Shown: positions 53,941-63,781 of the stretch, piece after piece
Position numbering within the stretch: the stretch's first letter is position 1
How the letters are laid out: each line of letters begins with the position of its first letter
IMG/VR virus record: IMGVR_UViG_3300027759_000043
Source of the DNA: a virus
Lineage: Duplodnaviria > Caudoviricetes
DNA: 64,000 nucleotides
Direction: 5' to 3' (one strand)
Made by a program: the position numbers and the translations under genes
Notes under the pieces: generated by a model
Databases searched by the model: none
What the model saw: only the letters and a program-made list of their open reading frames with translations
Told to the model about the DNA's origin: nothing

Positions 53941-54447
53941 ATGAGTTTTATTGAATCAGTTAAATCAGCGTTGCCAAACTACGCAAAGGACACCAAGTTA
54001 AATCTTGATGCTGTTCTTTTGCGTAGTACATTAGATGCAGATGTGGCCATTGGTTGTGCTGTGGCCGCACTGGCCGCAACTGGTAACGGTAAAATCCTAT
54101 CAGTAATTTTGGCAGATGCACCTGTACATGCTGAATCGGCAATGACAGCGGCCAGCATCATGGCCCAAAACAACGTTTGGTACCCCTACGTTGAAATGGC
54201 TGACGACGCAAGTCTAACGGGCCTACCGGCTCAGTTACGTATGAACGCTATTGCCGGTCATGGTGGAACTACCAAGTCAAACTTTGAAGCATTCTCTTTG
54301 GCTGCCTCGATTGTGGGCAAGTGCCATTTTTGTGTGAAAGCGCACTATGAGACCTTGAAAAAGGAAGGGTACTCTGTAGAACAACTTCGTGACATTGGTC
54401 GCATTGCCGCAGTAATGAATTCGGTAGCCCGGGTCTTAAATAGTTAA
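53941..54447 (+). CDS. ahpD: Alkyl hydroperoxide reductase AhpD
   Basis: YAKDTKLNL, MAQNNVWY, LRMN, GKCHFCV..H. Confidence 0.92.
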   Translation: MSFIESVKSALPNYAKDTKLNLDAVLLRSTLDADVAIGCAVAALAATGNGKILSVILADAPVHAESAMTAASIMAQNNVWYPYVEMADDASLTGLPAQLRMNAIAGHGGTTKSNFEAFSLAASIVGKCHFCVKAHYETLKKEGYSVEQLRDIGRIAAVMNSVARVLNS

Positions 54448-54461
54448 TACAAAAGTAGCAG

Positions 54462-54490
54462 TTGACAACAATCAGTTCTTCTGCTATAAT
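54462..54490 (+). promoter_or_regulatory. Sigma70-type promoter
   Basis: TTGACA-17-TATAAT, extended TG. Confidence 0.88.
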
Positions 54491-54518
54491 ACACAATTAA
54501 CTATAAAAGGAGAAACAC

Positions 54519-55124
54519 ATGCCAGCAATATTTTTGGTCAGCGACACGCACTTTGGCCACGCCGGTGTGTGTCGCTTCACACACCCCGACGATCCTGAAG
54601 TGAAATTGCGTCCCTGGTCAGATCCAGATGAGATGGATGAAGAAATGATCCGGCGTTGGAACGACCGTGTGCGTCCTAATGACAAGGTGTATCACTTGGG
54701 CGATGTAGTTATTAACCGCAAAGCCTTGAAGACGTTGTCCAGGTTGAACGGTGACAAGGTGTTGATCCGTGGCAACCACGACATCTTCCGTGATGACGAG
54801 TACCGCGAATACTTTCGTGAGTTACGTGCATACCATGTAATGAACGGAATGATCTTGAGTCATATTCCTGTGCATGAGGCTTCATTGGGTCGCTTTGGTG
54901 TTAACATTCACGGACACTTGCATGCCAGTCGTGTGAAGAAAGCACGTGGTGTTGATGCCAAGACTGGTGCTACATTGTACAGCACTGAGATTGATCCAAG
55001 ATACCATTGCGTTTGTGTGGAACTTACAGACTTTACACCTATCTTGTTTGAAGATGTGATCCGACGCATCGAAGCAGAAGGTGGGGTAGTTGGTTTCAAA
55101 TCCGGCAACGGTCCTGCTATGTAG
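54519..55124 (+). CDS. Calcineurin-like metallophosphoesterase
   Basis: SDTHFGH, HLGD, RGNHD, LSH, HGHLH. Confidence 0.9.
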   Translation: MPAIFLVSDTHFGHAGVCRFTHPDDPEVKLRPWSDPDEMDEEMIRRWNDRVRPNDKVYHLGDVVINRKALKTLSRLNGDKVLIRGNHDIFRDDEYREYFRELRAYHVMNGMILSHIPVHEASLGRFGVNIHGHLHASRVKKARGVDAKTGATLYSTEIDPRYHCVCVELTDFTPILFEDVIRRIEAEGGVVGFKSGNGPAM

Positions 55125-55127
55125 AGG

Positions 55128-55156
55128 TTGACAGATCATAAATAAACCTGTACAAT
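55128..55156 (+). promoter_or_regulatory. Sigma70-type promoter of leader peptide
   Basis: TTGACA-17-TACAAT. Confidence 0.8.
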
Positions 55157-55165
55157 AAACACAAC

Positions 55166-55297
55166 ATGAAACATTCTGCACACAATTCAAATTATCTACC
55201 CACACTAGGTCTAGGCACCTGTGCCGCCTTGTGGTCTACGACTGAGAACAATGGCAGTGAATCAGATGAGATCAGGGTCCGAGGAGACAGGGTATAG
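55166..55297 (+). CDS. Putative attenuator leader peptide (43 aa)
   Basis: MKHSAHNSNYLPTLGLGTCAALWSTTENNGSESDEIRVRGDRV, about 10 nt after the -10 box. Confidence 0.55.
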   Translation: MKHSAHNSNYLPTLGLGTCAALWSTTENNGSESDEIRVRGDRV

Positions 55298-55324
55298 TTT
55301 AACAACTTACTCAAACTTCAAAGG

Positions 55325-55358
55325 ACCCTGGATTAAAAACCCAGGGTTTTTTGTTTTT
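55325..55358 (+). terminator. Intrinsic terminator with competing antiterminator
   Basis: ACCCTGG/CCAGGGT stem plus U-tract; GGACCCTG (55323-30) can instead pair with CAGGGTCC (55273-80). Confidence 0.8.
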
Positions 55359-55369
55359 AGGAGAAAAAT

Positions 55370-55417
55370 ATGAGCACAGAAGAATATTGGCGATGGATTC
55401 ACGATAACGTACAATAG
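55370..55417 (+). CDS. 15-aa micropeptide
   Basis: AGGAGA SD then MSTEEYWRWIHDNVQ. Confidence 0.4.
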   Translation: MSTEEYWRWIHDNVQ

Positions 55418-55455
55418 AGCGTTATCGAAGTGTAGTAGAAATACAACACATGGTG

Positions 55456-55484
55456 TTGACTAATAAATGAAAGACTGCTACAAT
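55456..55484 (+). promoter_or_regulatory. Sigma70-type promoter upstream of tRNA/ncRNA cluster
   Basis: TTGACT-17-TACAAT, extended TG. Confidence 0.75.
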
Positions 55485-55570
55485 AGAACTTAACAAAGCA
55501 ACAAAGTAGATCGATACTGGTTGCAACAGATCTTTAAAAATCTCATTCATGTAGTCCTGCATTGCAGGCA

Positions 55571-55791
55571 CTATATGAGAACACATTAGGGTTACCAGAC
55601 CCGTTAGAGGCATTGGTAGAAGTGAATCGACACCGGCGGGTGTCCGCTTGCTATCAGTCATGAGGCCGGCTCTCACCGTGAGGTGATCCAGAAAAGCGGC
55701 GGATCGTCTGGCAGTAATGACCGTGGTGACTTGGCCTCGCAAGCCAAGCAGAACGAGATCCACAACGGTTCCCAAATGTTTTTTCATATGG
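55571..55791 (+). ncRNA. About 220-nt structured RNA closed by a long terminal stem
   Basis: 55571-91 pairs with 55771-91; internal hairpins GACACC/GGTGTC, GATCC/GGATC, CTTGGC/GCCAAG. Confidence 0.6.
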
Positions 55792-55865
55792 TGGGTTCAT
55801 CTAGAGGCCTAGGATAGTGCCCTTTCACGGCATTCACACCGGTTCGAATCCGGTACCCACTACCA
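55790..55865 (+). tRNA. tRNA-Glu(UUC)
   Basis: Acceptor GGTGGGT/ACCCACT, anticodon loop CT-TTC-AC, GGTTCGAATCC, CCA. Confidence 0.93.
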
Positions 55866-55943
55866 TATAGAAACATATTGCCGAGGAGCGACGTCTTTAC
55901 CATGGGCTCCGACCATAACGAGAGGTAGTGTGTTTCTATATGG
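55863..55943 (+). ncRNA. Stem-closed RNA cassette 1
   Basis: 20-bp terminal stem CCATATAGAAACA.../...TGTTTCTATATGG; inner GGAGC/GCTCC. Confidence 0.6.
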
Positions 55944-55946
55944 TAA

Positions 55947-56067
55947 CCATATAGAAGTATTCTTGGCATAAGTCAAAGCAGGAGAAGAAGCCTAGTATCT
56001 GCAGATGCGAAAGTTTCAGTGGTGCAAATCCCCTCCTAGGCCTGCCGTCGAGAGTGCTTCTATATGG
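55947..56067 (+). ncRNA. Stem-closed RNA cassette 2 with T-loop-like motif
   Basis: 21-bp terminal stem CCATATAGAAGTA.../...TGCTTCTATATGG; GCCTAG/CTAGGC; GGTGCAAATCC. Confidence 0.6.
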
Positions 56068-56068
56068 T

Positions 56069-56227
56069 AGATGTTATAGTCAAGCATCGATAAGGTATCG
56101 TGTATGGACGCATACACTATTCGGGTCACAGCGGCCGGCGACTGATCCTAATATAACTGCATTCGGCTTTTGCACTCTTAGCGGAGGACGCATAAATTGG
56201 CATTCTCGGTGCTTGACTATAATATTT
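56069..56227 (+). ncRNA. Stem-closed RNA cassette 3
   Basis: 19-22-bp stem TGTTATAGTCAAGCATCGA/TCGGTGCTTGACTATAATA; inner GTGTATG/CATACAC, GGGTCA/TGATCC. Confidence 0.6.
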
Positions 56228-56302
56228 GGTCCGATAGTATATCGGTTAGTATTTCGCACTGTCACTGCGAGGAGACGGGTTCGATTCCCGTTCGGACCGC
56301 CA
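56228..56302 (+). tRNA. tRNA-Asp(GUC)
   Basis: GGTCCGA/TCGGACC, anticodon CT-GTC-AC, G73, CCA. Confidence 0.93.
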
Positions 56303-56309
56303 AGTTTTT

Positions 56310-56386
56310 GAGAGCCGCATCGCCCTGATACTTCCCTCGGTAACGAGACACTAGGTCTTGCAACAGCGGCTCTCCCCTTTAAGGAG
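56310..56386 (+). promoter_or_regulatory. Candidate cis-regulatory RNA upstream of feoA
   Basis: 9-bp stem GAGAGCCGC/GCGGCTCTC; CTCG-GTAA-CGAG; CTCC can pair with SD GGAG. Confidence 0.45.
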
Positions 56387-56392
56387 TTGACT

Positions 56393-56629
56393 GTGACTGA
56401 TACATTAAACAACTTGTCAGCAGGCATTACTGCTACTATTGACGACATAGTAGGCAATCACAGTTACACTGATAGATTAAAGAGCATGGGGTTCCGATCA
56501 GGACAAAGTATTCAAGTTCTTAGACGAACTCCGCATTGTATGCATGTGCGAGTGGGTTTCAGTGAGTGGGCCATACGCAACCAAGATGCAAAGTTAGTAA
56601 AAATTATTCCCCGAGAGCAATCTAGGTGA
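56393..56629 (+). CDS. feoA: FeoA-family SH3 protein
   Basis: L..G.TATI..I.G......RL..MGFRSG..I.V.R......VRV....AIR..DA..V; GTG start 6 nt after AAGGAG. Confidence 0.8.
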   Translation: MTDTLNNLSAGITATIDDIVGNHSYTDRLKSMGFRSGQSIQVLRRTPHCMHVRVGFSEWAIRNQDAKLVKIIPREQSR

Positions 56630-56683
56630 AGGCGGCGGACTGTTAATCCGTGAAGCCTGGTTCGAATCCAGGTCGGGGAGCCA
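56608..56683 (+). tRNA. tRNA-Asn(GUU)
   Basis: TCCCCGA/TCGGGGA, CT-GTT-AA, GGTTCGAATCC, CCA. Confidence 0.92.
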
Positions 56684-56703
56684 ACCTCTTAATAAGTATC
56701 GTT

Positions 56704-57366
56704 ATGACATTCGAAGATTTATGTATATTATTTTACTATCCTCCTTCTGCTGGTGGTAAGTTTATTATCAACAGTTTGAGTCTTAGTAAAAATTGTGTGT
56801 TACATTCTAATGAACTTGCGCAATGGGAACTAGATCAAACTGATATTGATTTGTTATACAAAAAAAAATTAGAAACTATCTTAAAAACTGTTCCTGAAAA
56901 TGCACTAGATGGCACTTGGCAAAAATATGAATTAGGAGACTCTTGGTTTCAAGACAAAAATCTAACGATAACACCAGATCTTCAGAAGATTATCAATAGT
57001 TCAAAACATTTTTGTTCCATATATCATAACGTTGACGAACTTCGATTAATTTTATCAATGTATCCAAGAACTCGTGTTGTAAAACTTACCAACTATGTTA
57101 ACTGGATGATTTACTGTAGTGCAAAAACAAGAATAACAGATATTGATGAAAAAAGAATCCATTGGTCGTTTATTGATAAAAATGAAATAGAATCTCCGAC
57201 AGTTGACTGGATTCTTATCGATATCGATAATTCAATAAGATCTATGGCCGTGATGCAACAGCAAATAGAAATACTTTATAACAAATTAGGATTCGACGAC
57301 TTTGACGAATCACGGTGGCGGCAGTACTATATCAAGTATGCTCAAAGTCACAAATTGGCTCCGTAG
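56704..57366 (+). CDS. Hypothetical protein (paralog of 61296-61946; possible sulfotransferase-like P-loop)
   Basis: YYPPSAGGKFI..SLSLSK vs YFPGAGGNFI..CLSLSK. Confidence 0.7.
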   Translation: MTFEDLCILFYYPPSAGGKFIINSLSLSKNCVLHSNELAQWELDQTDIDLLYKKKLETILKTVPENALDGTWQKYELGDSWFQDKNLTITPDLQKIINSSKHFCSIYHNVDELRLILSMYPRTRVVKLTNYVNWMIYCSAKTRITDIDEKRIHWSFIDKNEIESPTVDWILIDIDNSIRSMAVMQQQIEILYNKLGFDDFDESRWRQYYIKYAQSHKLAP

Positions 57367-57433
57367 TTCAGTCCGGCAGAACGTTGGTCTCCAAAACCAA
57401 ATGTCAGAGGTTCAAATCCTTTCGGGGTCGCCA
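57357..57433 (+). tRNA. tRNA-Trp(CCA)
   Basis: GGCTCCG/CGGGGTC, CT-CCA-AA, GGTTCAAATCC, CCA. Confidence 0.92.
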
Positions 57434-57438
57434 TACAT

Positions 57439-57526
57439 GGAGGTATCGCATAGCGGTCGATTGCACGGGACTGTAAATCCTGCGTCCCAAGGGACCTCGG
57501 TGGTTCAAATCCATCTACCTCCACCA
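57439..57526 (+). tRNA. tRNA-Tyr(GUA)
   Basis: GGAGGTA/TACCTCC, CT-GTA-AA, long variable arm, CCA. Confidence 0.93.
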
Positions 57527-57529
57527 TAT

Positions 57530-57603
57530 GCCTCGTTAGTTTAATGATAGAACTCCGTCTTTACACGGCGGTTACGGCAGTTCGATTTTGTCACGAGGTA
57601 TCA
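57530..57603 (+). tRNA. tRNA-Val(UAC), 3' end TCA rather than CCA
   Basis: GCCTCGT/ACGAGGT, TT-TAC-AC, TTCGATT loop. Confidence 0.8.
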
Positions 57604-57610
57604 TTGCTTA

Positions 57611-57618
57611 TATAAATA
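57611..57618 (+). promoter_or_regulatory. T4-type late promoter
   Basis: TATAAATA, the gp55 consensus. Confidence 0.7.
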
Positions 57619-57622
57619 ACTT

Positions 57623-57712
57623 GAGCAACGCCAGCAAGGGCTGACGTCGGACTTGATATTGACGCCTAGGGTAGAGAAACCCTTTTACTAGTGTGTTACA
57701 CGTAGAACGCCA
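57623..57712 (+). ncRNA. Candidate structured leader with repeated RACGYC motifs
   Basis: AACGCC, GACGTC, GACGCC, AACGCC flanking hairpins CAGC/GCTG, AGGGT/ACCCT, CTAGTG/CAC-TAG. Confidence 0.4.
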
Positions 57713-57794
57713 ATTCCCGTAAACATATTTCTATGTAAAGCCAGAAACATCAACAAACACTATAACAAAGTGTAAATTACTTTTTGGAACTATT

Positions 57795-58676
57795 ATGAAA
57801 AAACTTTACATACTCTTATGCTCTGTTCTGTATTTTTGTATTGCAAGCGCGGCACCTGTTAACATTATTTTACCAGTGCCGCCAGGCGGTGTCATGACCG
57901 ATCTTGCAATGGCTCTGAGTCAAACGTTGACCGATGAAGGCATTGAAAATTTTGTATCGTATCTGCCCGGTGCAGATGGTGACATTGCATATAATACTGT
58001 GCTAAAACAACAAGATAATGTTATCTTTGAAGTTGCAGTGGCACACTCAGTATTCAGCAACGTTCTTCGTGACCGAGACAATATCTACACCAAGAATATG
58101 ACAATGATTGCACCTGTTATCCGTTCACCACTTGGATTTGTGTCTAATAACAAAAACTTTGGCTCATTTCGCGAGTTGATTGAGTATGCAAAATTAAATC
58201 CTTTGCCTTGCGGAGTAAGTGCGCCACATGGTTCAGCAGAACTAGCACGTATAAACAAAAAGTATGGAACAAGATTTGAATCAGTTCCTTACAAAGGCAA
58301 TAGTCAGTTGCGCCCTGATCTAGTAGAAGGCACATTAAGATGTGCCCTTGACAGTGTAGGATCTCACATTCCTTTGCACAATGACGGCAAACTCAAAATC
58401 CTGTCAGTTACTCATGCCACGCGAGGACTGGATGTTCTAATGATGGATCGAGTACTGCCTGGATACACATTCGATAATTGGTTTGGATTTGCTATTCCCA
58501 AGGATAGCAACATATTAAAAGACGAGCGTGTGATGAAAGTTGTTAACAACTTACACAAGTCTAAAAAACTTGAGCCATTACTTGATGCTGGATTTTTACA
58601 TGCTGTTCCACAATCAAACATCGAAAAGATCATGGATCAACAAACTGATCAGTACCGCCAACAGTTGAAAAAGTAA
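57795..58676 (+). CDS. Bug/TctC-family extracytoplasmic solute-binding protein
   Basis: Signal peptide; PVPPGG..D; PGADG.IA; F.ELIEYAK; VPYKG....DL..G. Confidence 0.82.
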   Translation: MKKLYILLCSVLYFCIASAAPVNIILPVPPGGVMTDLAMALSQTLTDEGIENFVSYLPGADGDIAYNTVLKQQDNVIFEVAVAHSVFSNVLRDRDNIYTKNMTMIAPVIRSPLGFVSNNKNFGSFRELIEYAKLNPLPCGVSAPHGSAELARINKKYGTRFESVPYKGNSQLRPDLVEGTLRCALDSVGSHIPLHNDGKLKILSVTHATRGLDVLMMDRVLPGYTFDNWFGFAIPKDSNILKDERVMKVVNNLHKSKKLEPLLDAGFLHAVPQSNIEKIMDQQTDQYRQQLKK

Positions 58677-58677
58677 T

Positions 58678-59796
58678 ATGTACGCTTACAAGATCGACAA
58701 TCAGTTTTTTAACAATATCTATTTGGCCTTACACGAGGCAAGAAAAACTCGCAAGCAGATAGAATTTTACTGTAACGATCAAGAGTTTGACAAGTACAAC
58801 TGGACAAGCGAACCAGAAGCAACGTTAGATTTTCTCATGTCGGTCTATGCCACAAGACTGCGAAATCAACACAAACGTTTGATAATGGCATACAGTGGTG
58901 GAACAGATAGTCACACCATATACAATGTTTTTAAAAACAACAATATTCACATTGACGAGATTGTTGTCAAGACAGAGAAAAGTTCCAATCATCTTCCTAC
59001 TGCTACTGCGGATTGGTTAAGAAACAATCATTGGGATAAGACCACACTGATCACCGAGGTTGATAATTTTGATCAAGACCTCAAACTAAAAGAATCACCT
59101 GATGAAGACTGGATCTGGCGTAACGAGCGTAGCCTGTTCATGTACGGAATATCTCCAATGGGCCAAGGCATTATTGATCGGCTTGAACAGCGTTATGGAA
59201 ACACTGACTTTCGTTTGATTTGCGGGGTCGAAAAACCACGACTGATTTACAGAAACAAACATTGGTATCACCGTCAGATGGGCTTGTGTTTCCATCAAAT
59301 CATGGGCCACGAAAAAATTGTTCCGTTCTTTATGGAACCGTTGATTGCAATCAAACAAGCGCACATGTGCAAGCAAGCAGTCAAGCAATTGATTGCTGTA
59401 AACAAATTACCGTTGTATGACAACGATTGGGCTGAAGCCAAGTGGAATAAAACTCCCGAAGGATATCGTGCATGGTGCAACGGCACCGGACGTCACGATG
59501 AATTGTTTCTAGGTGTGAGTCCTGCACAAAAGGCGCTGAATGAAGTATTAGATCGAGTCGAATTTAACTTGTCTGGCAACTGGAAAAAAATGAACAATTC
59601 TAAAGATTTTAGATTATTGTATGACTTGCAAGATTCCAAACAGACTGCTGTAAACTATACCAAAGGCTTTTTGAACTTGTCAAGTGAGTTTGGATTCATT
59701 GGATGGCTTCAAGAAAACGGTTGGCTACGAAACTCTGAATCAGAATTACGTAGACTAAATTTTGTATGGTCCAAAGAATATGATTTGGGCCCGTAA
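58678..59796 (+). CDS. PP-loop alpha-hydrolase (asparagine-synthase-like)
   Basis: MAYSGGTDS PP-loop; ICGVEKPRL. Confidence 0.65.
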   Translation: MYAYKIDNQFFNNIYLALHEARKTRKQIEFYCNDQEFDKYNWTSEPEATLDFLMSVYATRLRNQHKRLIMAYSGGTDSHTIYNVFKNNNIHIDEIVVKTEKSSNHLPTATADWLRNNHWDKTTLITEVDNFDQDLKLKESPDEDWIWRNERSLFMYGISPMGQGIIDRLEQRYGNTDFRLICGVEKPRLIYRNKHWYHRQMGLCFHQIMGHEKIVPFFMEPLIAIKQAHMCKQAVKQLIAVNKLPLYDNDWAEAKWNKTPEGYRAWCNGTGRHDELFLGVSPAQKALNEVLDRVEFNLSGNWKKMNNSKDFRLLYDLQDSKQTAVNYTKGFLNLSSEFGFIGWLQENGWLRNSESELRRLNFVWSKEYDLGP

Positions 59797-59809
59797 AAAA
59801 GGATAAAAT

Positions 59810-60466
59810 ATGGACATAGGCGTTGATTATAAAAGACTAAGCGATTTTCCAGTGAAAATTCTTCAGCCACTACAAGAACTGGCATCAACAATGGATTGGT
59901 CATTACCGGACTTTGATAGGAACGGTGATTATTTGAACAACGCCATTGTTAGGGTGCCATATGGTATTCGCAAAGAACCACTGCAATCATTGACGCCAAT
60001 TATTCAACAGTTTTTAGATGCGTTTGCTCCCATTGACGCCTACATGAAAACGTTGTATCCACAACATGTATTCATCAAATGCGAAATGAACTGGCTCAAG
60101 CCTGGCGAAGTAGTGCCAATTCATAAAGATAATTGTTGGTGGCACAAACATTGTCCTCGTGTGCATGTTCCTGTAATCACAAACAAGCAATGTGGTTGGG
60201 TAGTAGAAGGACGTTTGCATCATCTACCAGTGGGCAGTTACTATGAAGTCAACAATAGAAAATTCCATTCTGCTGTTAACAATGGCAACAATGGTAGGTT
60301 GCACCTGGTGTTTGATATCATGGAACAATCGGTGTATGATAATGCTGTTGCCGCAGGAATCGACATTAGTCATCAAGACATTGTTGATCATAAACTGAGC
60401 AGTTGGGATCAATTGCCTAACGACAAAGATAACCGTCTGTTGGCTTCACTGGGGTTTGTTTTATAA
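59810..60466 (+). CDS. Aspartyl/asparaginyl beta-hydroxylase-like 2OG-Fe(II) oxygenase
   Basis: LKPG...PIHKD, RVHVPV.TN, EVNNRKFHSAVN, RLHLVFD. Confidence 0.85.
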   Translation: MDIGVDYKRLSDFPVKILQPLQELASTMDWSLPDFDRNGDYLNNAIVRVPYGIRKEPLQSLTPIIQQFLDAFAPIDAYMKTLYPQHVFIKCEMNWLKPGEVVPIHKDNCWWHKHCPRVHVPVITNKQCGWVVEGRLHHLPVGSYYEVNNRKFHSAVNNGNNGRLHLVFDIMEQSVYDNAVAAGIDISHQDIVDHKLSSWDQLPNDKDNRLLASLGFVL

Positions 60467-60480
60467 AACTCTTTGTTGTG

Positions 60481-60509
60481 TTGACAAACAACAACTAATC
60501 GTATATAAT
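60481..60509 (+). promoter_or_regulatory. Sigma70-type promoter for second tRNA block
   Basis: TTGACA-17-TATAAT. Confidence 0.88.
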
Positions 60510-60528
60510 ACATGATAATAGAAACAAC

Positions 60529-60606
60529 GCACTGGTGGCAGAGTGGTCCAATGCATGGGATTGCAAATCCCAAAAGCCGCTGGTTCAAATCCAGCCCAGT
60601 GCTCCA
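60529..60606 (+). tRNA. tRNA-Cys(GCA)
   Basis: GCACTGG/CCAGTGC, TT-GCA-AA, U73, CCA. Confidence 0.93.
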
Positions 60607-60611
60607 AACGT

Positions 60612-60840
60612 TCCAGCGTCACTGGATAGTCTGACCCAGACGATGAGAAGTACAATGACATGTACGGGTGGTTCTGAAGAGGCAAATCTTCACATGGTAA
60701 CATGCGGTCCAACCTAACCGGCGTTAGCAACACGATAGCGGTCCCTGTCGGGAAGCGGGTGGAAGGAGTACAAGTTGCGGTGTGTAGTGGAAAGACTATC
60801 ACTCAATGCTCTATAATTACCGCCGGGGGACGCAGAGCAT
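60612..60840 (+). ncRNA. About 230-nt multi-hairpin RNA between tRNA-Cys and tRNA-Met
   Basis: At least seven short hairpins (TCCAG/CTGGA, GTCTG/CAGAC, GTACA/TGTAC, TGAAGA/TCTTCA, CATG-GTAA-CATG, CTAAC/GTTAG, ATGCTCT/AGAGCAT). Confidence 0.55.
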
Positions 60841-60848
60841 CTTATTAC

Positions 60849-60923
60849 CGCGGGATGGAGAAGCGGTAACTCGTCAGGCTCATAACCTGAAGATCGGCGG
60901 TTCGATTCCGTCTCCCGCAACCA
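60849..60923 (+). tRNA. tRNA-Met(CAU), initiator-like
   Basis: C1:A72 mismatch, CT-CAT-AA; only two G-C pairs at the base of the anticodon stem. Confidence 0.9.
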
Positions 60924-60924
60924 A

Positions 60925-60998
60925 GCCCTTTTAGTTTAATGGTAAAACAGTTGATTTGTAATCATCAGACGTTAGTTCGATTCTATCAAGGGGCGCCA
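60925..60998 (+). tRNA. tRNA-Thr(UGU)
   Basis: GCCCTTT/AAGGGGC, TT-TGT-AA; one U-U mismatch each in anticodon and T stems. Confidence 0.8.
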
Positions 60999-61012
60999 TA
61001 CTAGGAAACATT

Positions 61013-61261
61013 ATGTTAGAATATGTCATCACCTTCTTTGCAGTATTTGCCACTGACTTGATCTATGTGTACTTTGTGAAATCAATTCAAGACAATCGTC
61101 CGCTGATGGCGGCTTGGTGGAGTATGGCGGTGACCTTTACTGCCAGTGTGGCAGTGATCAATTACACTGCGGATCACTGGGCCTTGATTCCGGCTTTGTT
61201 AGGTGCTTATTGCGGTACCTTGTTTGGCATGTGGATCAAGCGAAGAATCAACTCCGATTAG
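61013..61261 (+). CDS. Small membrane protein
   Basis: Three hydrophobic helices; AGGA SD. Confidence 0.8.
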   Translation: MLEYVITFFAVFATDLIYVYFVKSIQDNRPLMAAWWSMAVTFTASVAVINYTADHWALIPALLGAYCGTLFGMWIKRRINSD

Positions 61262-61295
61262 CATAACCCGGCAGCGCCTGTGATTTGAGACTAAT

Positions 61296-61946
61296 TCAAA
61301 TAAATGGGTCGACTCGTAATGATCGCCATTCCTGATAATAAAGTATACTACAATCAATTTCAGGAGTTAACTTTAATGCATCACAAACCATCAAGTATTG
61401 TTCCATGAAATAATCCACGCCTTTAAGAATTTGTGTCATTGACATTGTGACTGTAATCGGCAGCGCCTTTATTGTGATTTCTTCTGTGTATTGTTCATCG
61501 GTTATTTGATAGGAGGGTAAGAATATGCCAAACTGTTTAAAATAATTGAAAGAATTTTCTATCCAATGTCCATATTTTCCACAGTCAAGTTCAAGGAAAA
61601 CAATTTTTTCAAGATAAGATAATCTATCCTGATAAGTGTTAGTATGGTTTGTAACAATAGACCAATCAAAGCAAGAGTCCATCAATGGATTTTTATAATA
61701 AAAGTCTGGAGCAAAAAAATCATCACGATTATTATGAAATCTTTTAAAATCCTCCAAAGATTTGAAGCGCACCAGGTCTTTTCGTTGTTTTGCTGACATT
61801 GATTTTATTTGAATTATTTCTTCATCTGAACAGACACTAATTGGTTTGTGATAATATGGAACTGTTTCTTTGCTCAACGACAGACAAAATTTTATAAAAT
61901 TTCCTCCAGCGCCGGGAAAATAAATTACAGAGCAAGGTTTTATCAT
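61296..61946 (-). CDS. Hypothetical protein (paralog of 56704-57366)
   Basis: IYFPGAGGNFI motif. Confidence 0.7.
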   Translation of the reverse strand: MIKPCSVIYFPGAGGNFIKFCLSLSKETVPYYHKPISVCSDEEIIQIKSMSAKQRKDLVRFKSLEDFKRFHNNRDDFFAPDFYYKNPLMDSCFDWSIVTNHTNTYQDRLSYLEKIVFLELDCGKYGHWIENSFNYFKQFGIFLPSYQITDEQYTEEITIKALPITVTMSMTQILKGVDYFMEQYLMVCDALKLTPEIDCSILYYQEWRSLRVDPFI

Positions 61947-61969
61947 AGGATTACTTATAGAGTTACATA

Positions 61970-62053
61970 GCGAGCATGAGAGAATTGGTAGATTCCAAGA
62001 ACTTACAATTCACTGCGAGATACGTCTCAATTCGACTCCGGGTGCTTGCACCA
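61970..62053 (+). pseudogene. Degenerate tRNA, probably derived from tRNA-Leu
   Basis: Intact acceptor GCGAGCA/TGCTTGC-A-CCA and AATTGGTAGA D-loop, but broken anticodon and T stems. Confidence 0.6.
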
Positions 62054-62223
62054 GGTGGTATCTAATTTAAACTCACGTTTGGGATTTATTAGCATAGGGT
62101 CTATCACAAAATCTCTACGCACAGTAGAAAACCAGTGTTCACGATACTGGCCTTGAGCCGCTTTGTACAATTCTTCAATGCCATGTTCAGTATCAAATCT
62201 CATAGCAATATTTATTACAAGTA

Positions 62224-62898
62224 TTGCTCTCTCTAATGCTAACTAATAGCATGATCAAAAGAATTGTTGCATATGGGGACAGTATTACCTATGGATACGA
62301 CTTGCCTGACTGTGACGATTGCCCTAGCAATTTAACTTATGCCGCACTAGTGGCCAAGCATTACGGACTAGAGTATGAATGTCGTGCAGTAGGATCAAAC
62401 GCCAATCAAAGTATCACAAGAAATCTACTAGATTCAGAAATACTATCAACAGATCTAGTGATAATCATGTGGACTTTTATAGATCGTAAAGATTTTTTAT
62501 TTGATGGTGCACTAGGATGGCGCAGTATTTCCGTACACCATACATCTCAGTATCCTTTTGCAAGTGAGTATTATAGATATATCGATACCTCACTTGATTA
62601 CGAACTGTACTTGACTCATAAAGAAATTGTAATTGTGCAAAAATATTTAGAAGCAAATCACATACCTTTTTTATTTTTGTCTGCTACTGATACTATTCTC
62701 AAAAGTTTAAATTGGGATAATACAAATCTATTGCACCTAATAGACAGATCAAAATGGGTAATACCTTTCCAAGGTCAAGGATTTTACGATTGGACCAAAG
62801 ATCAACGTTTAACAGTGCCCAAAGGAGGACATCCAAACGAATCGGCCAATCGTATTCTTGCTGATTACATAATCAGTCAGGATTTAATTAGTAAGTGA
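62224..62898 (+). CDS. SGNH hydrolase-like protein
   Basis: AYGDSITYG, GSNANQSI, GHPNESAN. Confidence 0.72.
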   Translation: MLSLMLTNSMIKRIVAYGDSITYGYDLPDCDDCPSNLTYAALVAKHYGLEYECRAVGSNANQSITRNLLDSEILSTDLVIIMWTFIDRKDFLFDGALGWRSISVHHTSQYPFASEYYRYIDTSLDYELYLTHKEIVIVQKYLEANHIPFLFLSATDTILKSLNWDNTNLLHLIDRSKWVIPFQGQGFYDWTKDQRLTVPKGGHPNESANRILADYIISQDLISK

Positions 62899-62907
62899 AA
62901 ATATAAA

Positions 62908-62997
62908 GGAGACGTGGCCGAGTGGCCTATGGCACCGGATTACTAACCCGGCGAGGTAGCAATACCTCCGTGAGTTCGAATCTCACCGTCTCCGCCA
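62908..62997 (+). tRNA. tRNA-Ser with ACU anticodon
   Basis: GGAGACG/CGTCTCC, G73, long variable arm GAGGTA-GCAA-TACCTC, loop TT-ACT-AA. Confidence 0.85.
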
Positions 62998-63003
62998 GTC
63001 AAA

Positions 63004-63077
63004 GCGGGATTAGTTTAATGGTAAAACGAGATCCTTCCAAGTTCAAGTCAGCGGTTCGATTCCGCTATCCCGCTCCA
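63004..63077 (+). tRNA. tRNA-Gly(UCC)
   Basis: GCGGGAT/ATCCCGC, U73, CT-TCC-AA; anticodon stem has two mismatches. Confidence 0.85.
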
Positions 63078-63079
63078 GA

Positions 63080-63781
63080 CTATTTCACAGTGGCCAACCG
63101 CAAGGCCCTGAGGATGCAGATGTACATCCAACCTACATCAAACTCCCACCAGTTTCGACTGAGTCGGGCACTGGCCGGGTCCAGGTGATGATTGTTGTGC
63201 AATTCTTCACCGCCAACCACAATGCCCCAAGGCACAAGATTACGACTGAGATCTCGAGTTTCTCCGTTCCTGTATCCTGCCCAATGACCTAGACCATTGA
63301 TGACTCCGGCGGCCCAGAGTGGTATCCATATCATTTGAATGCCCCAGATCACAGGTCCCCACCAACCAAACATTACTGTATTGAACACAAGGACCAGGCC
63401 AATGCCAAGTCTACTGTGAGGAGTGTATATGTTGCGCTCCACCCAATCAGCAGGAGTGCCACGACCATATGTACTAACCATATCTTTATCTTTTGATGCC
63501 TCATGATATAATACTGCTCCTCGAAAAAATACTTGCACAATTCCATACACATGTGGTGAGTGTGGGTCGCCTGCTCGATCACTGTATCTGTGATGCTTGC
63601 GGTGTATGGCCACCCATTGTTTGGTGACCATGCCTGTTGTGAGCCACAGCCATGCTCGCATGAAATGTTCAATCATGGGATGAAACTCTACTGATTTGTG
63701 TGCTTGGCCACGATGTAGGTACAATGTCACACATGCTATAGTGATGTGTGTTACGATTAGGGTGTATAATAATTCAGTCAT
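63080..63781 (-). CDS. Membrane fatty acid desaturase (delta-9 type)
   Basis: His boxes LHRGQAH, HRKHH, HNNHH; WEFDVGW. Confidence 0.92.
   Translation of the reverse strand: MTELLYTLIVTHITIACVTLYLHRGQAHKSVEFHPMIEHFMRAWLWLTTGMVTKQWVAIHRKHHRYSDRAGDPHSPHVYGIVQVFFRGAVLYHEASKDKDMVSTYGRGTPADWVERNIYTPHSRLGIGLVLVFNTVMFGWWGPVIWGIQMIWIPLWAAGVINGLGHWAGYRNGETRDLSRNLVPWGIVVGGEELHNNHHLDPASARLSRNWWEFDVGWMYICILRALRLATVK

What the first reader, a model, noticed from the sequence alone, without database searches (positions are those of the whole stretch)
55863..56067. Twin RNA cassettes with the same CCATATAGAA...TTCTATATGG closing helix but different cargo
Seen: two adjacent elements 3 nt apart, each closed by a 20-21-bp helix starting CCATATAGAA; the first CCA is the tRNA-Glu 3' end. 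Inside are unrelated structured cores, one with a T-loop-like GGUGCAAAUCC. The upstream 220-nt RNA has a related end (CTATATGAGAA/TTTCATATGG). Inference: a modular array in which a shared helix acts as an RNase III-type processing signal or insertion scar, so different small RNAs can be stacked behind tRNAs. This would be an RNA-level cassette system, possibly decoys for anti-tRNA defences.
Basis: partly seen in the sequence, partly recalled or inferred. Interest (0 to 1): 0.72.

Follow-up and report, generated by a model that had tools for sequence, protein, structure and literature searches.

The report
Conserved hairpin cassettes behind phage tRNAs
Behind a tRNA gene of this large uncultured lake phage lie two small RNA hairpins that belong to a widespread, uncatalogued family with a nearly invariant stem joined to tRNA ends and an interior that differs from phage to phage; the stem most likely helps to cut tRNAs out of a long precursor, which is untested.

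Summary
Cassette A (55861-55945) and cassette B (55946-56068) are each closed by a 22-bp helix. A's helix starts with the encoded CCA of tRNA-Glu. The 220-nt RNA upstream carries a variant of the same helix.

The motif is far from unique. Capped scans of IMG/VR returned 120 and 108 distinct cassettes with this stem, about 165 distinct and 133 non-redundant interiors. Of the 120, 88 start exactly at a tRNA's CCA and 35 end exactly at nucleotide +1 of the next tRNA.

Arm variation follows RNA pairing rules, with G.U tolerated on the tRNA strand only. Related genomes hold only 1-3 copies, all in the tRNA region. So this is a selected RNA helix, not a high-copy mobile DNA repeat.

The interiors turn over and reassort. 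Close relatives lack A, and A's interior sits behind tRNA-Lys elsewhere. B is a conserved structured RNA with compensatory changes. In five near-complete relatives, 5 of 6 tRNA-Lys(UUU) genes carry such a cassette.

Best reading (0.5): a cis-acting processing stem for the tRNA polycistron, cut by host enzymes, with mostly passenger interiors. RNase III itself is untested and the decoy idea has no direct support. This scan noted similar stem-closed spacers in other phage groups before.

The parts
55456..55484 (+). Sigma-70-type promoter-like site (TTGACT, 17 nt, TACAAT, with TG before the second hexamer). It probably drives the RNA array.
   Evidence: 10 of 12 consensus positions. No terminator-like site follows on the + strand except a hit inside tRNA-Asp (56231-56245). 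Consensus match only; function not shown.
55570..55792 (+). Upstream ~220-nt structured RNA. Its closing helix (CUAUAUGAGAACACAUU / AAUGUUUUUUCAUAUGG) is a variant of the family helix, and its 3' arm runs into the first bases of tRNA-Glu.
   Evidence: MFE -82.3 kcal/mol, z -3.5. Homologues at 85-96% identity in L231, L242, L012, L226 and L238. A 165-nt contig of a lake RNA library matches 55594-55758 exactly.
55790..55865 (+). tRNA-Glu(UUC) with encoded CCA (55863-55865)
   Evidence: Rfam tRNA, 52.3 bits
55861..55945 (+). Cassette A: 22-bp closing helix (55861-55882 with 55924-55945, three G.U pairs) around a 41-nt interior. The family core is 55863-55943.
   Evidence: Interior homologues at 89-98% identity in L242 and L231 (same twin arrangement) and in L375 and L186 (behind tRNA-Lys). 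Absent in L012, L226 and L238.
55944..55946 (+). 3-nt linker (UAA) between the two core motifs. UA extends helix A by pairing with U72-A73 of tRNA-Glu.
   Evidence: Tandem cassettes elsewhere have linkers of 2-5 nt: 3 nt in 8 of 10 (TAA, TGA, TAG), otherwise 2 nt (L185) and 5 nt (L165).
55946..56068 (+). Cassette B: 22-bp closing helix (55946-55967 with 56047-56068) around a conserved branched interior. It belongs to a ~118-nt RNA family.
   Evidence: Fourteen distinct homologues, 98.8% of cells paired, 6 pairs with compensatory changes against 1.3 in shuffles (0 of 500), and 5 G.U pairs in the closing helix.
56068..56228 (+). Cassette C: a third stem-closed RNA with a different 23-26-bp helix. 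It ends at nucleotide +1 of tRNA-Asp.
   Evidence: Homologues at 71-100% identity in about 20 loci. A contig of an RNA library joins the tRNA-Glu 3' end directly to C, so that relative has neither A nor B.
56228..56302 (+). tRNA-Asp(GUC). Its 5' end defines the 3' boundary of C.
   Evidence: 59 bits

Best explanation
A and B belong to a family of RNA hairpin cassettes that large freshwater phages insert into their tRNA polycistrons. The working part is the closing helix of about 17-22 bp. Its consensus is CCAUAUAAAAACACAUU paired with AGUGUGUUUCUAUAUGG, and B carries a sister version.

The 5' arm begins with the CCA of the upstream tRNA. The 3' arm ends at nucleotide +1 of the next tRNA, or at the next cassette. 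The helix therefore folds any intervening sequence away and brings the two tRNA ends together.

Proposed pathway (inferred, not shown):
- The array is transcribed from the promoter at 55456-55484.
- Each hairpin forms as soon as its 3' arm is made.
- Host RNase P cuts at the 5' end of the downstream tRNA and so sets the cassette's 3' boundary.
- A second endonucleolytic cut frees the upstream tRNA for final trimming to CCA. This could be RNase III inside the ~20-bp duplex, or RNase P or RNase E at the A/U-rich base next to the CCA.
- The stem-closed interior is released.

Most interiors look like replaceable passengers. A few (B, the 220-nt upstream RNA, C and probably A) are conserved small RNAs that use the stem as an excision and stability frame. 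Cassettes are gained, lost and swapped by recombination within the shared arm sequence. That is how A came to lie in front of B here.
For: Shown by computation:

1. The helix recurs. A scan with the 3' arm gave 141 matches, and 131 of them had the matching 5' arm 43-344 nt upstream, making 120 distinct cassettes. A scan with the 5' arm gave 108 of 116 distinct instances with a pairing 3' arm.

2. The ends are exact. Of the 120, 88 start at the tRNA's CCA, 35 end at +1 of the next tRNA (G-1 for tRNA-His), and 30 do both.

3. Variation follows RNA pairing rules.
- With the 3' arm fixed, 5'-arm changes are C>U opposite G (48) and A>G opposite U (37). U>C opposite A occurs only 3 times.
- With the 5' arm fixed, the 3' arm varies only at position 8 (C 82, U 26) and position 16 (G 85, A 23).
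- Position 9 covaries between A-U and G-C.
- L060 has a diverged helix with compensatory changes.
- When no tRNA precedes, CCA may become UCA, CUA or UUA, which still pair with UGG.
- Helix A has three G.U pairs and helix B five, so the opposite strand would pair poorly.

4. The arms are better conserved than their surroundings. The 5' arm is 93% identical between cassettes, the upstream tRNA-Lys bodies 72%, and the interiors 46%.

5. Copy number is low: 1-3 copies per ~350-kb genome, all in the tRNA region.

6. Modules reassort. A is present in the window, L231 and L242 and absent in L012, L226 and L238. A's interior lies behind tRNA-Lys in L375 and L186. Six of 14 multi-member interior families lie behind two or more tRNA species.

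7. B has a covariation-supported structure.

8. Four complete relatives encode no RNase III, dsRBD or CCA-adding enzyme, so any processing must use host enzymes.

From the literature: E. coli RNase P removes terminator hairpins lying 2-7 nt after the CCA of tRNA transcripts (PMC4176162).
Against: No cleavage site, RNA end or enzyme dependence has been observed.

The near-invariance of the arm sequence goes beyond what a purely structural stem needs. Few compensatory double changes are seen. This points to a sequence-specific partner not yet identified, or to recent horizontal spread.

The conservation figures are partly inflated by ascertainment, because both scans required an exact arm.

Only about 10% of long (40-350 nt) inter-tRNA spacers in these loci are single stem-closed units, so such a stem is not a general requirement for spacing tRNAs.

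The strong preference for tRNA-Lys(UUU) is not explained by a generic processing role.
Confidence: 0.5

Rival explanations
1. The interiors are the point. The helix is a universal display and excision adaptor for a diversified, recombining pool of small phage RNAs, such as regulators, sponges, or decoys in conflicts over tRNAs. The interiors act in trans after release.
For: A, B, C and the upstream RNA are each conserved across contigs at 71-100% identity. B has six compensatory pairs. Contigs of lake RNA libraries cover the upstream RNA and C. T-arm words (AGGTTC, GTTCGA) are the only enriched motif among interiors, about 9 of 133 against 1.7-1.8 expected. The cassettes prefer tRNA-Lys(UUU), which from my own knowledge is a known target of anticodon nucleases.
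Against: Of 93 interior families, 79 are singletons. Interiors range from 9 to about 300 nt. They fold barely better than shuffles: mean z -0.57, and 12% below -2. No hairpin mimics the anticodon loop of the upstream tRNA (0 matches). There is no shared motif other than the T-arm, and no enrichment of SD-like words. At the same Lys-to-Met junction, different phages carry unrelated interiors while the arms stay the same.
Confidence: 0.2
2. A DNA-level element: a selfish palindromic insert, like a MITE or the mitochondrial GC clusters, or a recombination linker that shuffles tRNA genes. On this reading the RNA hairpin is only a tolerated by-product.
For: There are terminal inverted repeats. Presence/absence differences between close relatives have breakpoints inside the 10-11-nt shared sequence. 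Interiors and tRNAs reassort. Mitochondrial palindromic clusters show comparable merger and shuffling with shared terminal sequences (PMC4478555).
Against: Each genome holds only 1-3 copies, and almost never the same interior twice. The boundaries coincide with RNA ends (CCA and +1), not with DNA target duplications. Arm variation is asymmetric in the way G.U pairing on one strand predicts; double-stranded DNA recognition would not give that pattern. Pfam found no transposase or integrase among the ten ORFs scanned between 53941 and 63781.
Confidence: 0.15
3. The relevant pairing is leader with trailer around the tRNA. The 3' arm of one cassette pairs with the 5' arm of the next, so the tRNA itself sits on a processing stalk, as 16S and 23S rRNA do.
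For: In the window, tRNA-Glu is flanked by the upstream RNA's 3' arm and A's 5' arm, which are complementary at 15 of 17 positions (read from the sequence). Arms of different cassettes are interchangeable: mis-paired controls still reach 16-21 pairs.
Against: Most genomes have too few cassettes to flank a tRNA on both sides. Sixty-five of 120 cassettes have no tRNA directly downstream. The order of transcription favours the local hairpin. The register would leave the discriminator base and C74 bulged.
Confidence: 0.05

Closest known systems
RNase III processing stalks (leader-trailer helices around 16S and 23S rRNA; phage T7 early RNase III sites). From my own knowledge.
   Same: A duplex of about 20 bp is formed by the sequences flanking an RNA that is cut out of a polycistronic precursor. 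The T7 sites are also similar to one another in sequence.
   Different: Here the duplex is joined to tRNA ends (CCA and +1) and frames short, interchangeable interiors. Cleavage by RNase III has not been tested.
Phage T4 small stable RNAs rnaC (species 1) and rnaD (species 2) in the T4 tRNA cluster
   Same: Non-tRNA small RNAs of unknown function that lie directly behind a tRNA in a phage tRNA cluster (annotation).
   Different: Folding of T4 rnaC and rnaD gives short acceptor-like closing stems; rnaC has a true T-arm. They have no long conserved helix and no sequence likeness to A or B. T4 is not known to have a family of variable interiors.
RNase P removal of hairpins just downstream of tRNA CCA in E. 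coli valU and lysT operons (PMC4176162)
   Same: A stem-loop lying 2-7 nt after the CCA of a tRNA (tRNA-Lys in those operons) is removed endonucleolytically as the first processing step.
   Different: Those hairpins are Rho-independent terminators at transcript ends. The phage hairpins are internal, have no U-tract, include the CCA in the stem and carry long variable loops.
Palindromic GC clusters of fungal mitochondria, some flanking tRNA genes (Yin et al. 1981 as cited in PMC4478555)
   Same: Conserved palindromic sequences occur next to tRNA genes. Shared terminal sequences go with variable neighbours. Both show shuffling and presence/absence differences.
   Different: The mitochondrial clusters are GC-rich, high in copy number and regarded as mobile DNA. 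The phage cassettes are A/U-rich at the base, present in 1-3 copies per genome, and show RNA-strand-specific pairing constraints.
tRNA-linked pre-miRNA hairpins of murine gammaherpesvirus 68. From my own knowledge.
   Same: One or two hairpins are placed directly behind a viral tRNA-like gene and freed by tRNA-processing enzymes.
   Different: That is a eukaryotic system with tRNase Z and Dicer, and its products are microRNAs. Nothing comparable is known in bacteria.

Membership tests
RNase III processing stalk | Duplex of about two helical turns formed by the sequences flanking the excised RNA | tested here: met
   Helices of 22 bp (A, B) and 23-26 bp (C). Family-wide, end-anchored helices measure 17-22 bp.
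RNase III processing stalk | Staggered cleavage by RNase III in the duplex | not testable with these tools
   Only assembled contigs of RNA libraries were available, with no read ends.
RNase III processing stalk | Lies inside a polycistronic precursor | tested here: inconclusive
   A promoter-like site lies at 55456-55484, and the only terminator-like + strand hit before 57500 lies inside tRNA-Asp. Co-transcription is inferred, not observed.
T4 rnaC / rnaD type stable RNAs | Sequence or structural likeness to rnaC or rnaD | tested here: not met
   Folds of T4 rnaC and rnaD lack a long closing helix. A distant BLAST of 55100-56400 against cultured phages hit only tRNAs.
T4 rnaC / rnaD type stable RNAs | Non-tRNA RNA gene inside a phage tRNA cluster | tested here: met
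tRNA or tRNA-like RNA (Rfam RF00005; T-arm) | Match to a tRNA model, or a conserved T-arm | tested here: not met
   ARAGORN and Rfam (E up to 10) find nothing in A or B. B's GGUGCAAAUCC is not conserved among 14 homologues. About 7% of other interiors do contain a true T-arm motif.
Any Rfam 15 family | Covariance-model match | tested here: not met
   No non-tRNA match falls within the cassettes (55570-56228). The only other hits are chance-level ones (E 1.4-4.6) at 55305-55391 and antisense to tRNA-Asn.
MITE / palindromic mobile DNA | Many copies per genome with a shared internal sequence | tested here: not met
   There are 1-3 copies per complete ~350-kb genome. Of 93 interior families, 79 are singletons.
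MITE / palindromic mobile DNA | Terminal inverted repeats and target-site duplication | tested here: inconclusive
   Inverted repeats are present by definition. The flanking UA...UA is part of the RNA helix (tRNA positions 72-73), so it cannot be told apart from a duplication.
Integron attC site | Conserved R''/R' core sites (RYYYAAC / GTTRRRY) and a nearby integrase | tested here: not met
   The arm sequences have no such cores. Pfam found no recombinase among the ten ORFs scanned between 53941 and 63781.
Retron msr-msd RNA | Adjacent reverse transcriptase gene | tested here: not met
   Pfam scan of the ten ORFs tested between 53941 and 63781 shows no reverse transcriptase.

The most novel reading that the evidence does not exclude
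The cassette is a dedicated 3' module of phage tRNA-Lys(UUU), and less often of tRNA-Gln(UUG) and tRNA-Glu(UUC). These are the tRNAs that anticodon nucleases attack. The module would control when or in what form the phage's replacement tRNAs mature. Alternatively, it would display a fast-changing library of small RNAs used in the conflict with host defences. In that case it would be an RNA-level counterpart of integron cassettes, shuffled through a universal adaptor helix.
Probability: 0.15. Interest if true: 0.85.

Novelty: new variant of a known kind. Interest (0 to 1): 0.62.

Why it matters
Large phages carry tens of tRNA genes, yet how these long arrays are processed is hardly studied outside T4.

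This family gives a concrete, very common and uncatalogued RNA element to test. It has exact boundaries, a stem better conserved than the neighbouring tRNA, and interchangeable interiors.

If the stem proves to be a portable excision signal, it explains how phages can place arbitrary small RNAs into tRNA operons without harming tRNA supply. It would also be a compact tool for releasing designed RNAs from tRNA scaffolds in bacteria.

The near-obligate link to tRNA-Lys(UUU) connects it to current work on phage tRNAs as counter-measures to tRNA-cleaving defences.

Tried and rejected
- **Rfam.** Gathering threshold on the whole window, then E up to 10 on 54900-57400: only tRNAs and chance-level hits, none within the cassettes.
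- **Cultured phages.** Distant BLAST of 55100-56400 against INPHARED gave only tRNA matches, so no cultured relative has these RNAs.
- **A/B junction pattern.** The exact junction in IMG/VR gave 0 hits because it is too specific.
- **Whole genome.** None is held for the window.
- **Public RNA runs.** Only Logan contigs were available, so no starts, ends, strand or levels. A and B were not covered by the RNA-library contigs laid. This says nothing either way.
- **Bacterial genomes.** Of 120 pattern hits, about 7-8 had a real hairpin. Six of these lie on small (1.5-4.9 kb) contigs rich in tRNA genes, in lake or uncultured bins, and are most likely mis-binned phage DNA. The other two (L248, L314) have no tRNA nearby and were not examined. 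So the cassette is not a host feature.
- **Decoy test.** Hairpins with 7-nt anticodon-like loops carrying the upstream tRNA's anticodon: 0 matches. The CUUUUAA loops that turned up belong to genuine tRNA-Lys genes inside nested matches.
- **Shared motif in interiors.** No SD-like enrichment (23 against 25.7 expected). Only T-arm words are enriched.
- **Generality.** Only about 10% of the 705 spacers of 40-350 nt between tRNAs are single end-anchored hairpins, so not every long spacer is stem-closed.
- **Phage-encoded enzymes.** No RNase III (PF14622, PF00636), dsRBD (PF00035) or CCA-adding enzyme (PF01743) in four complete relatives.
- **Upstream gene.** The phosphoesterase upstream (54519-55124) is a calcineurin-type metallophosphatase with no evident RNA link.
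- **T4 rnaC and rnaD as structural relatives.** Rejected.
- **Promoter reading of the 3' arm.** The position relative to tRNA +1 does not fit a sigma-70 -10 element (my reading of the sequence).

Full report
**1. The observation**

The window carries a phage tRNA region with 11 tRNAs between 55790 and 63077. tRNA-Glu(UUC) ends with an encoded CCA at 55863-55865.

Three inverted repeats follow at once:
- A: arms 55861-55882 and 55924-55945
- B: arms 55946-55985 and 56029-56068
- C: arms 56071-56093 and 56203-56225

Folded as RNA, A and B each close with 22 uninterrupted pairs. A has -38.9 kcal/mol and z -6.8. B has z -4.9. C closes with 15 or more pairs. My own stem scan extends C's helix to 26 positions, ending at base 1 of tRNA-Asp.

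CCATATAGAA occurs exactly four times in the 64 kb, and these are the four arms of A and B. The RNA upstream (55570-55792) is closed by a variant of the same helix, whose 3' arm runs into tRNA-Glu.

Rfam has no family for any of these elements, even at E up to 10.

A strong sigma-70-type promoter-like site lies at 55456-55484. The only terminator-like + strand hit before 57500 lies inside tRNA-Asp.

**2. The phage**

No cultured phage matches beyond the tRNAs, and no genome is held for the window.

The neighbouring phosphoesterase gene found about 600 relatives in IMG/VR. Several lie on contigs of about 350 kb with terminal repeats. The phage is thus a large uncultured phage. The holders among public runs are mostly lake or freshwater libraries.

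The tRNA region also carries FeoA, TctC-like, hydroxylase, lipase and desaturase genes.

**3. The helix is a widespread module**

- The closest relative, L012, has the upstream RNA, tRNA-Glu, B, C and tRNA-Asp but lacks A. B starts directly at the CCA.
Of 141 matches, 131 had the matching 5' arm 43-344 nt upstream, giving 120 distinct cassettes.
- The reciprocal scan with the consensus 5' arm gave 108 of 116 distinct instances with a pairing 3' arm.
- As a control, the same 16-mer in 596 Gb of bacterial genomes gave 120 hits, of which about 7-8 had a real hairpin. Six of these lie on small (1.5-4.9 kb), tRNA-dense contigs of lake or uncultured bins, most likely mis-binned phage. The other two have no tRNA nearby and were not examined.

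**4. Anatomy of the family**

Of the 120 cassettes, 88 begin exactly at the CCA of an upstream tRNA. Thirty-five end exactly at nucleotide +1 of the next tRNA (G-1 for tRNA-His), and 30 do both. The median length is 83 nt.

The consensus helix has 17 positions, with an A.C mismatch at position 8 in about 75-80% of cases and a U.G pair at position 16. It is usually lengthened by 1-3 cassette-specific pairs inside: 1.8 on average, against 0.8 in mis-paired controls. Outside, it is often lengthened by UA pairing with tRNA positions 72-73.

Among long inter-tRNA spacers, the end-anchored helix length is sharply bimodal: 13 or fewer pairs, or 17-22.

**5. RNA or DNA?**

The variation is what an RNA helix on the tRNA strand predicts.
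- With the G/U-rich 3' arm held fixed, the 5' arm changes by C>U opposite G (48 cases) and A>G opposite U (37). U>C opposite A occurs 3 times.
- With the A/C-rich 5' arm held fixed, the 3' arm is invariant except at the two positions where both alternatives are tolerated.
- Position 9 switches between A-U and G-C together.
- A diverged cassette behind tRNA-Gln (L060) keeps the helix through compensatory changes.
- Where no tRNA precedes, the initial CCA may be UCA, CUA or UUA, which still pair with UGG. The letters CCA therefore belong to the tRNA, and the pairing belongs to the helix.
- The helices of A and B contain three and five G.U pairs, which would be A.C mismatches on the other strand.

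Complete relatives hold only 1-3 copies, all in the tRNA region. This argues against a proliferating DNA repeat.

**6. The interiors**

Interiors are extraordinarily diverse. The 113 interiors compared fall into 93 families, 79 of them singletons. Pooling both scans gives 133 non-redundant interiors.

On average they fold little better than shuffles: mean z -0.57. The only shared motif is a T-arm, in about 7%. None mimics the anticodon loop of the upstream tRNA.

Some interiors are nevertheless conserved RNAs.
- B has 14 distinct homologues of 116-121 nt. Of all cells, 98.8% are paired. Six pairs have compensatory changes, against 1.3 in shuffles (0 of 500), and slid controls pair at 39-51%. 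B occurs behind tRNA-Glu, Leu or His and in front of tRNA-Met, Phe or His.
- The 'T-loop-like' stretch of B is confined to the window's clade.
- A's interior is 89-98% identical in four other contigs. Two have the same A+B twin (L231, L242), and two have A behind tRNA-Lys(UUU) (L375, L186).
- Six of 14 multi-member interior families lie behind more than one tRNA species.
- A contig of an RNA library joins the tRNA-Glu end directly to C, so that relative has neither A nor B.

The modules therefore reassort at the shared arm sequence. In the window, A is an indel flanked by the 10-nt repeat CCATATAGAA.

**7. An unexpected preference**

tRNA-Lys(UUU), Gln(UUG) and Glu(UUC) make up 11.7% of tRNAs in the sampled loci but 83% of the tRNAs that carry this cassette.

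Two samples were not chosen for the motif.
- In the 80 phosphoesterase loci, 6 of 208 tRNAs have a helix starting at the CCA: Lys 2 of 3, Glu 2 of 5, Gln 1 of 2, Leu 1 of 8. Random start points gave 0 of 208.
- In the tRNA regions of five near-complete genomes, 7 of 144 tRNAs have one, including 5 of 6 tRNA-Lys(UUU).

The tRNA-Lys bodies in front of the cassettes are only 72% identical to one another, while the 5' arm is 93% identical and the interiors are at random level. That comparison is partly biased, because the scan required an exact 3' arm.

A generic processing role does not explain this preference. I leave it as the main open point.

**8. Mechanism**

Shown: a selected RNA helix joined to tRNA ends, interiors that are mostly unconstrained, and recombination at the arms.

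Inferred from established enzymology:
- RNase P must cut at the 5' end of the downstream tRNA.
- That cut leaves the upstream tRNA with a trailer whose 3' end is buried in a stable duplex. Exonucleases alone could not remove it, so a second endonucleolytic cut is needed.
- The candidates are RNase III, because the duplex has about the two helical turns it requires, and RNase P or RNase E at the A/U-rich, often mismatched base of the stem.
- E. coli RNase P is documented to remove hairpins 2-7 nt after the CCA of tRNA transcripts (PMC4176162).

The phages encode no RNase III, dsRBD protein or CCA-adding enzyme of their own, so host enzymes are implied.

The arm sequence is conserved beyond what pairing requires. 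This hints at a sequence-specific partner, or at recent spread.

**9. Comparison and novelty**

T4 rnaC and rnaD share the setting but not the architecture. rRNA stalks and T7 RNase III sites share the principle. Mitochondrial palindromic clusters share the shuffling behaviour.

My four literature searches found no description of this element.

Earlier notes of this scan (AI notes, unchecked) report stem-closed spacers in tRNA operons of other phage groups: Ackermannviridae, Acinetobacter phages, N4-like phages and other freshwater giants. The general phenomenon has therefore been seen before in this scan.

What is added here:
- a census for one helix family;
- its exact joining to CCA and +1;
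- the strand-specific pairing signature;
- the turnover of interiors;
- the preference for tRNA-Lys(UUU).

I rate it a new variant of a known kind (processed spacer RNAs in phage tRNA operons), of solid but not top interest, because the function is still untested.

Noticed in passing
window 55570-55792: The ~220-nt structured RNA in front of tRNA-Glu is conserved at 85-96% identity in at least five contigs. It uses a variant of the same closing helix although no tRNA precedes it. A 165-nt contig of a lake RNA library matches its core (55594-55758) exactly.
   Followed up: partly
window 56068-56228: Cassette C has a different closing helix, ends at +1 of tRNA-Asp and has homologues at 71-100% identity in about 20 loci. 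Its 3' arm contains TTGGCA, a 15-nt spacer, then TATAAT just before tRNA-Asp, which could be an internal promoter.
   Followed up: partly
L427, L428, L430, L431, L433 (five near-complete relatives): Five of six tRNA-Lys(UUU) genes are followed by a CCA-anchored cassette, against 2 of 138 other tRNAs. The reason is unknown.
   Followed up: partly
L135 627-723, L168 3712-3810, L192 513-611, L128 125-226, L130 72-188, L132 201-329: Some interiors end in a perfect T-arm (GGTTCGAATCC type) 2-3 nt before the 3' arm, but ARAGORN calls no tRNA. These are tRNA-like cassettes without an anticodon arm.
   Followed up: partly
L096 2105-2291, L180 187-383, L199 1418-1604: tRNA-Lys(CUU) is followed after 3 nt (UAU) by tRNA-Lys(UUU), which in turn carries the cassette. 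The start CCAUAU of the spacer looks like the cassette arm.
   Followed up: no
L114, L145, L157, L166, L112 (directly after the cassette behind tRNA-Gln): A conserved element starting AAGATGATGCAGCGGGGTTGGTCC follows the cassette in five loci. It is not identified.
   Followed up: no
window 55128-55417: A second strong promoter-like site (TTGACA, 17 nt, TACAAT) is followed by a short ORF. A stem followed by a T-run, visible in the sequence near 55320-55360, precedes the RNA array; the terminator scan did not report it. The unit is conserved at 87% in L012 and L007.
   Followed up: no
window 56387-56629 and L012 5693-6010: A FeoA-domain ORF ends inside tRNA-Asn. L012 has an extra ~105-codon ORF inserted between tRNA-Asp and the feoA leader.
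   Followed up: no
window 53941-63781: Host-like metabolic genes are interleaved with the tRNAs: a CMD-family protein, a TctC-like binding protein, an Asp/Arg hydroxylase-like protein, a GDSL lipase and a fatty-acid desaturase. The TctC-like gene hints at a Burkholderiales-type host.
   Followed up: no
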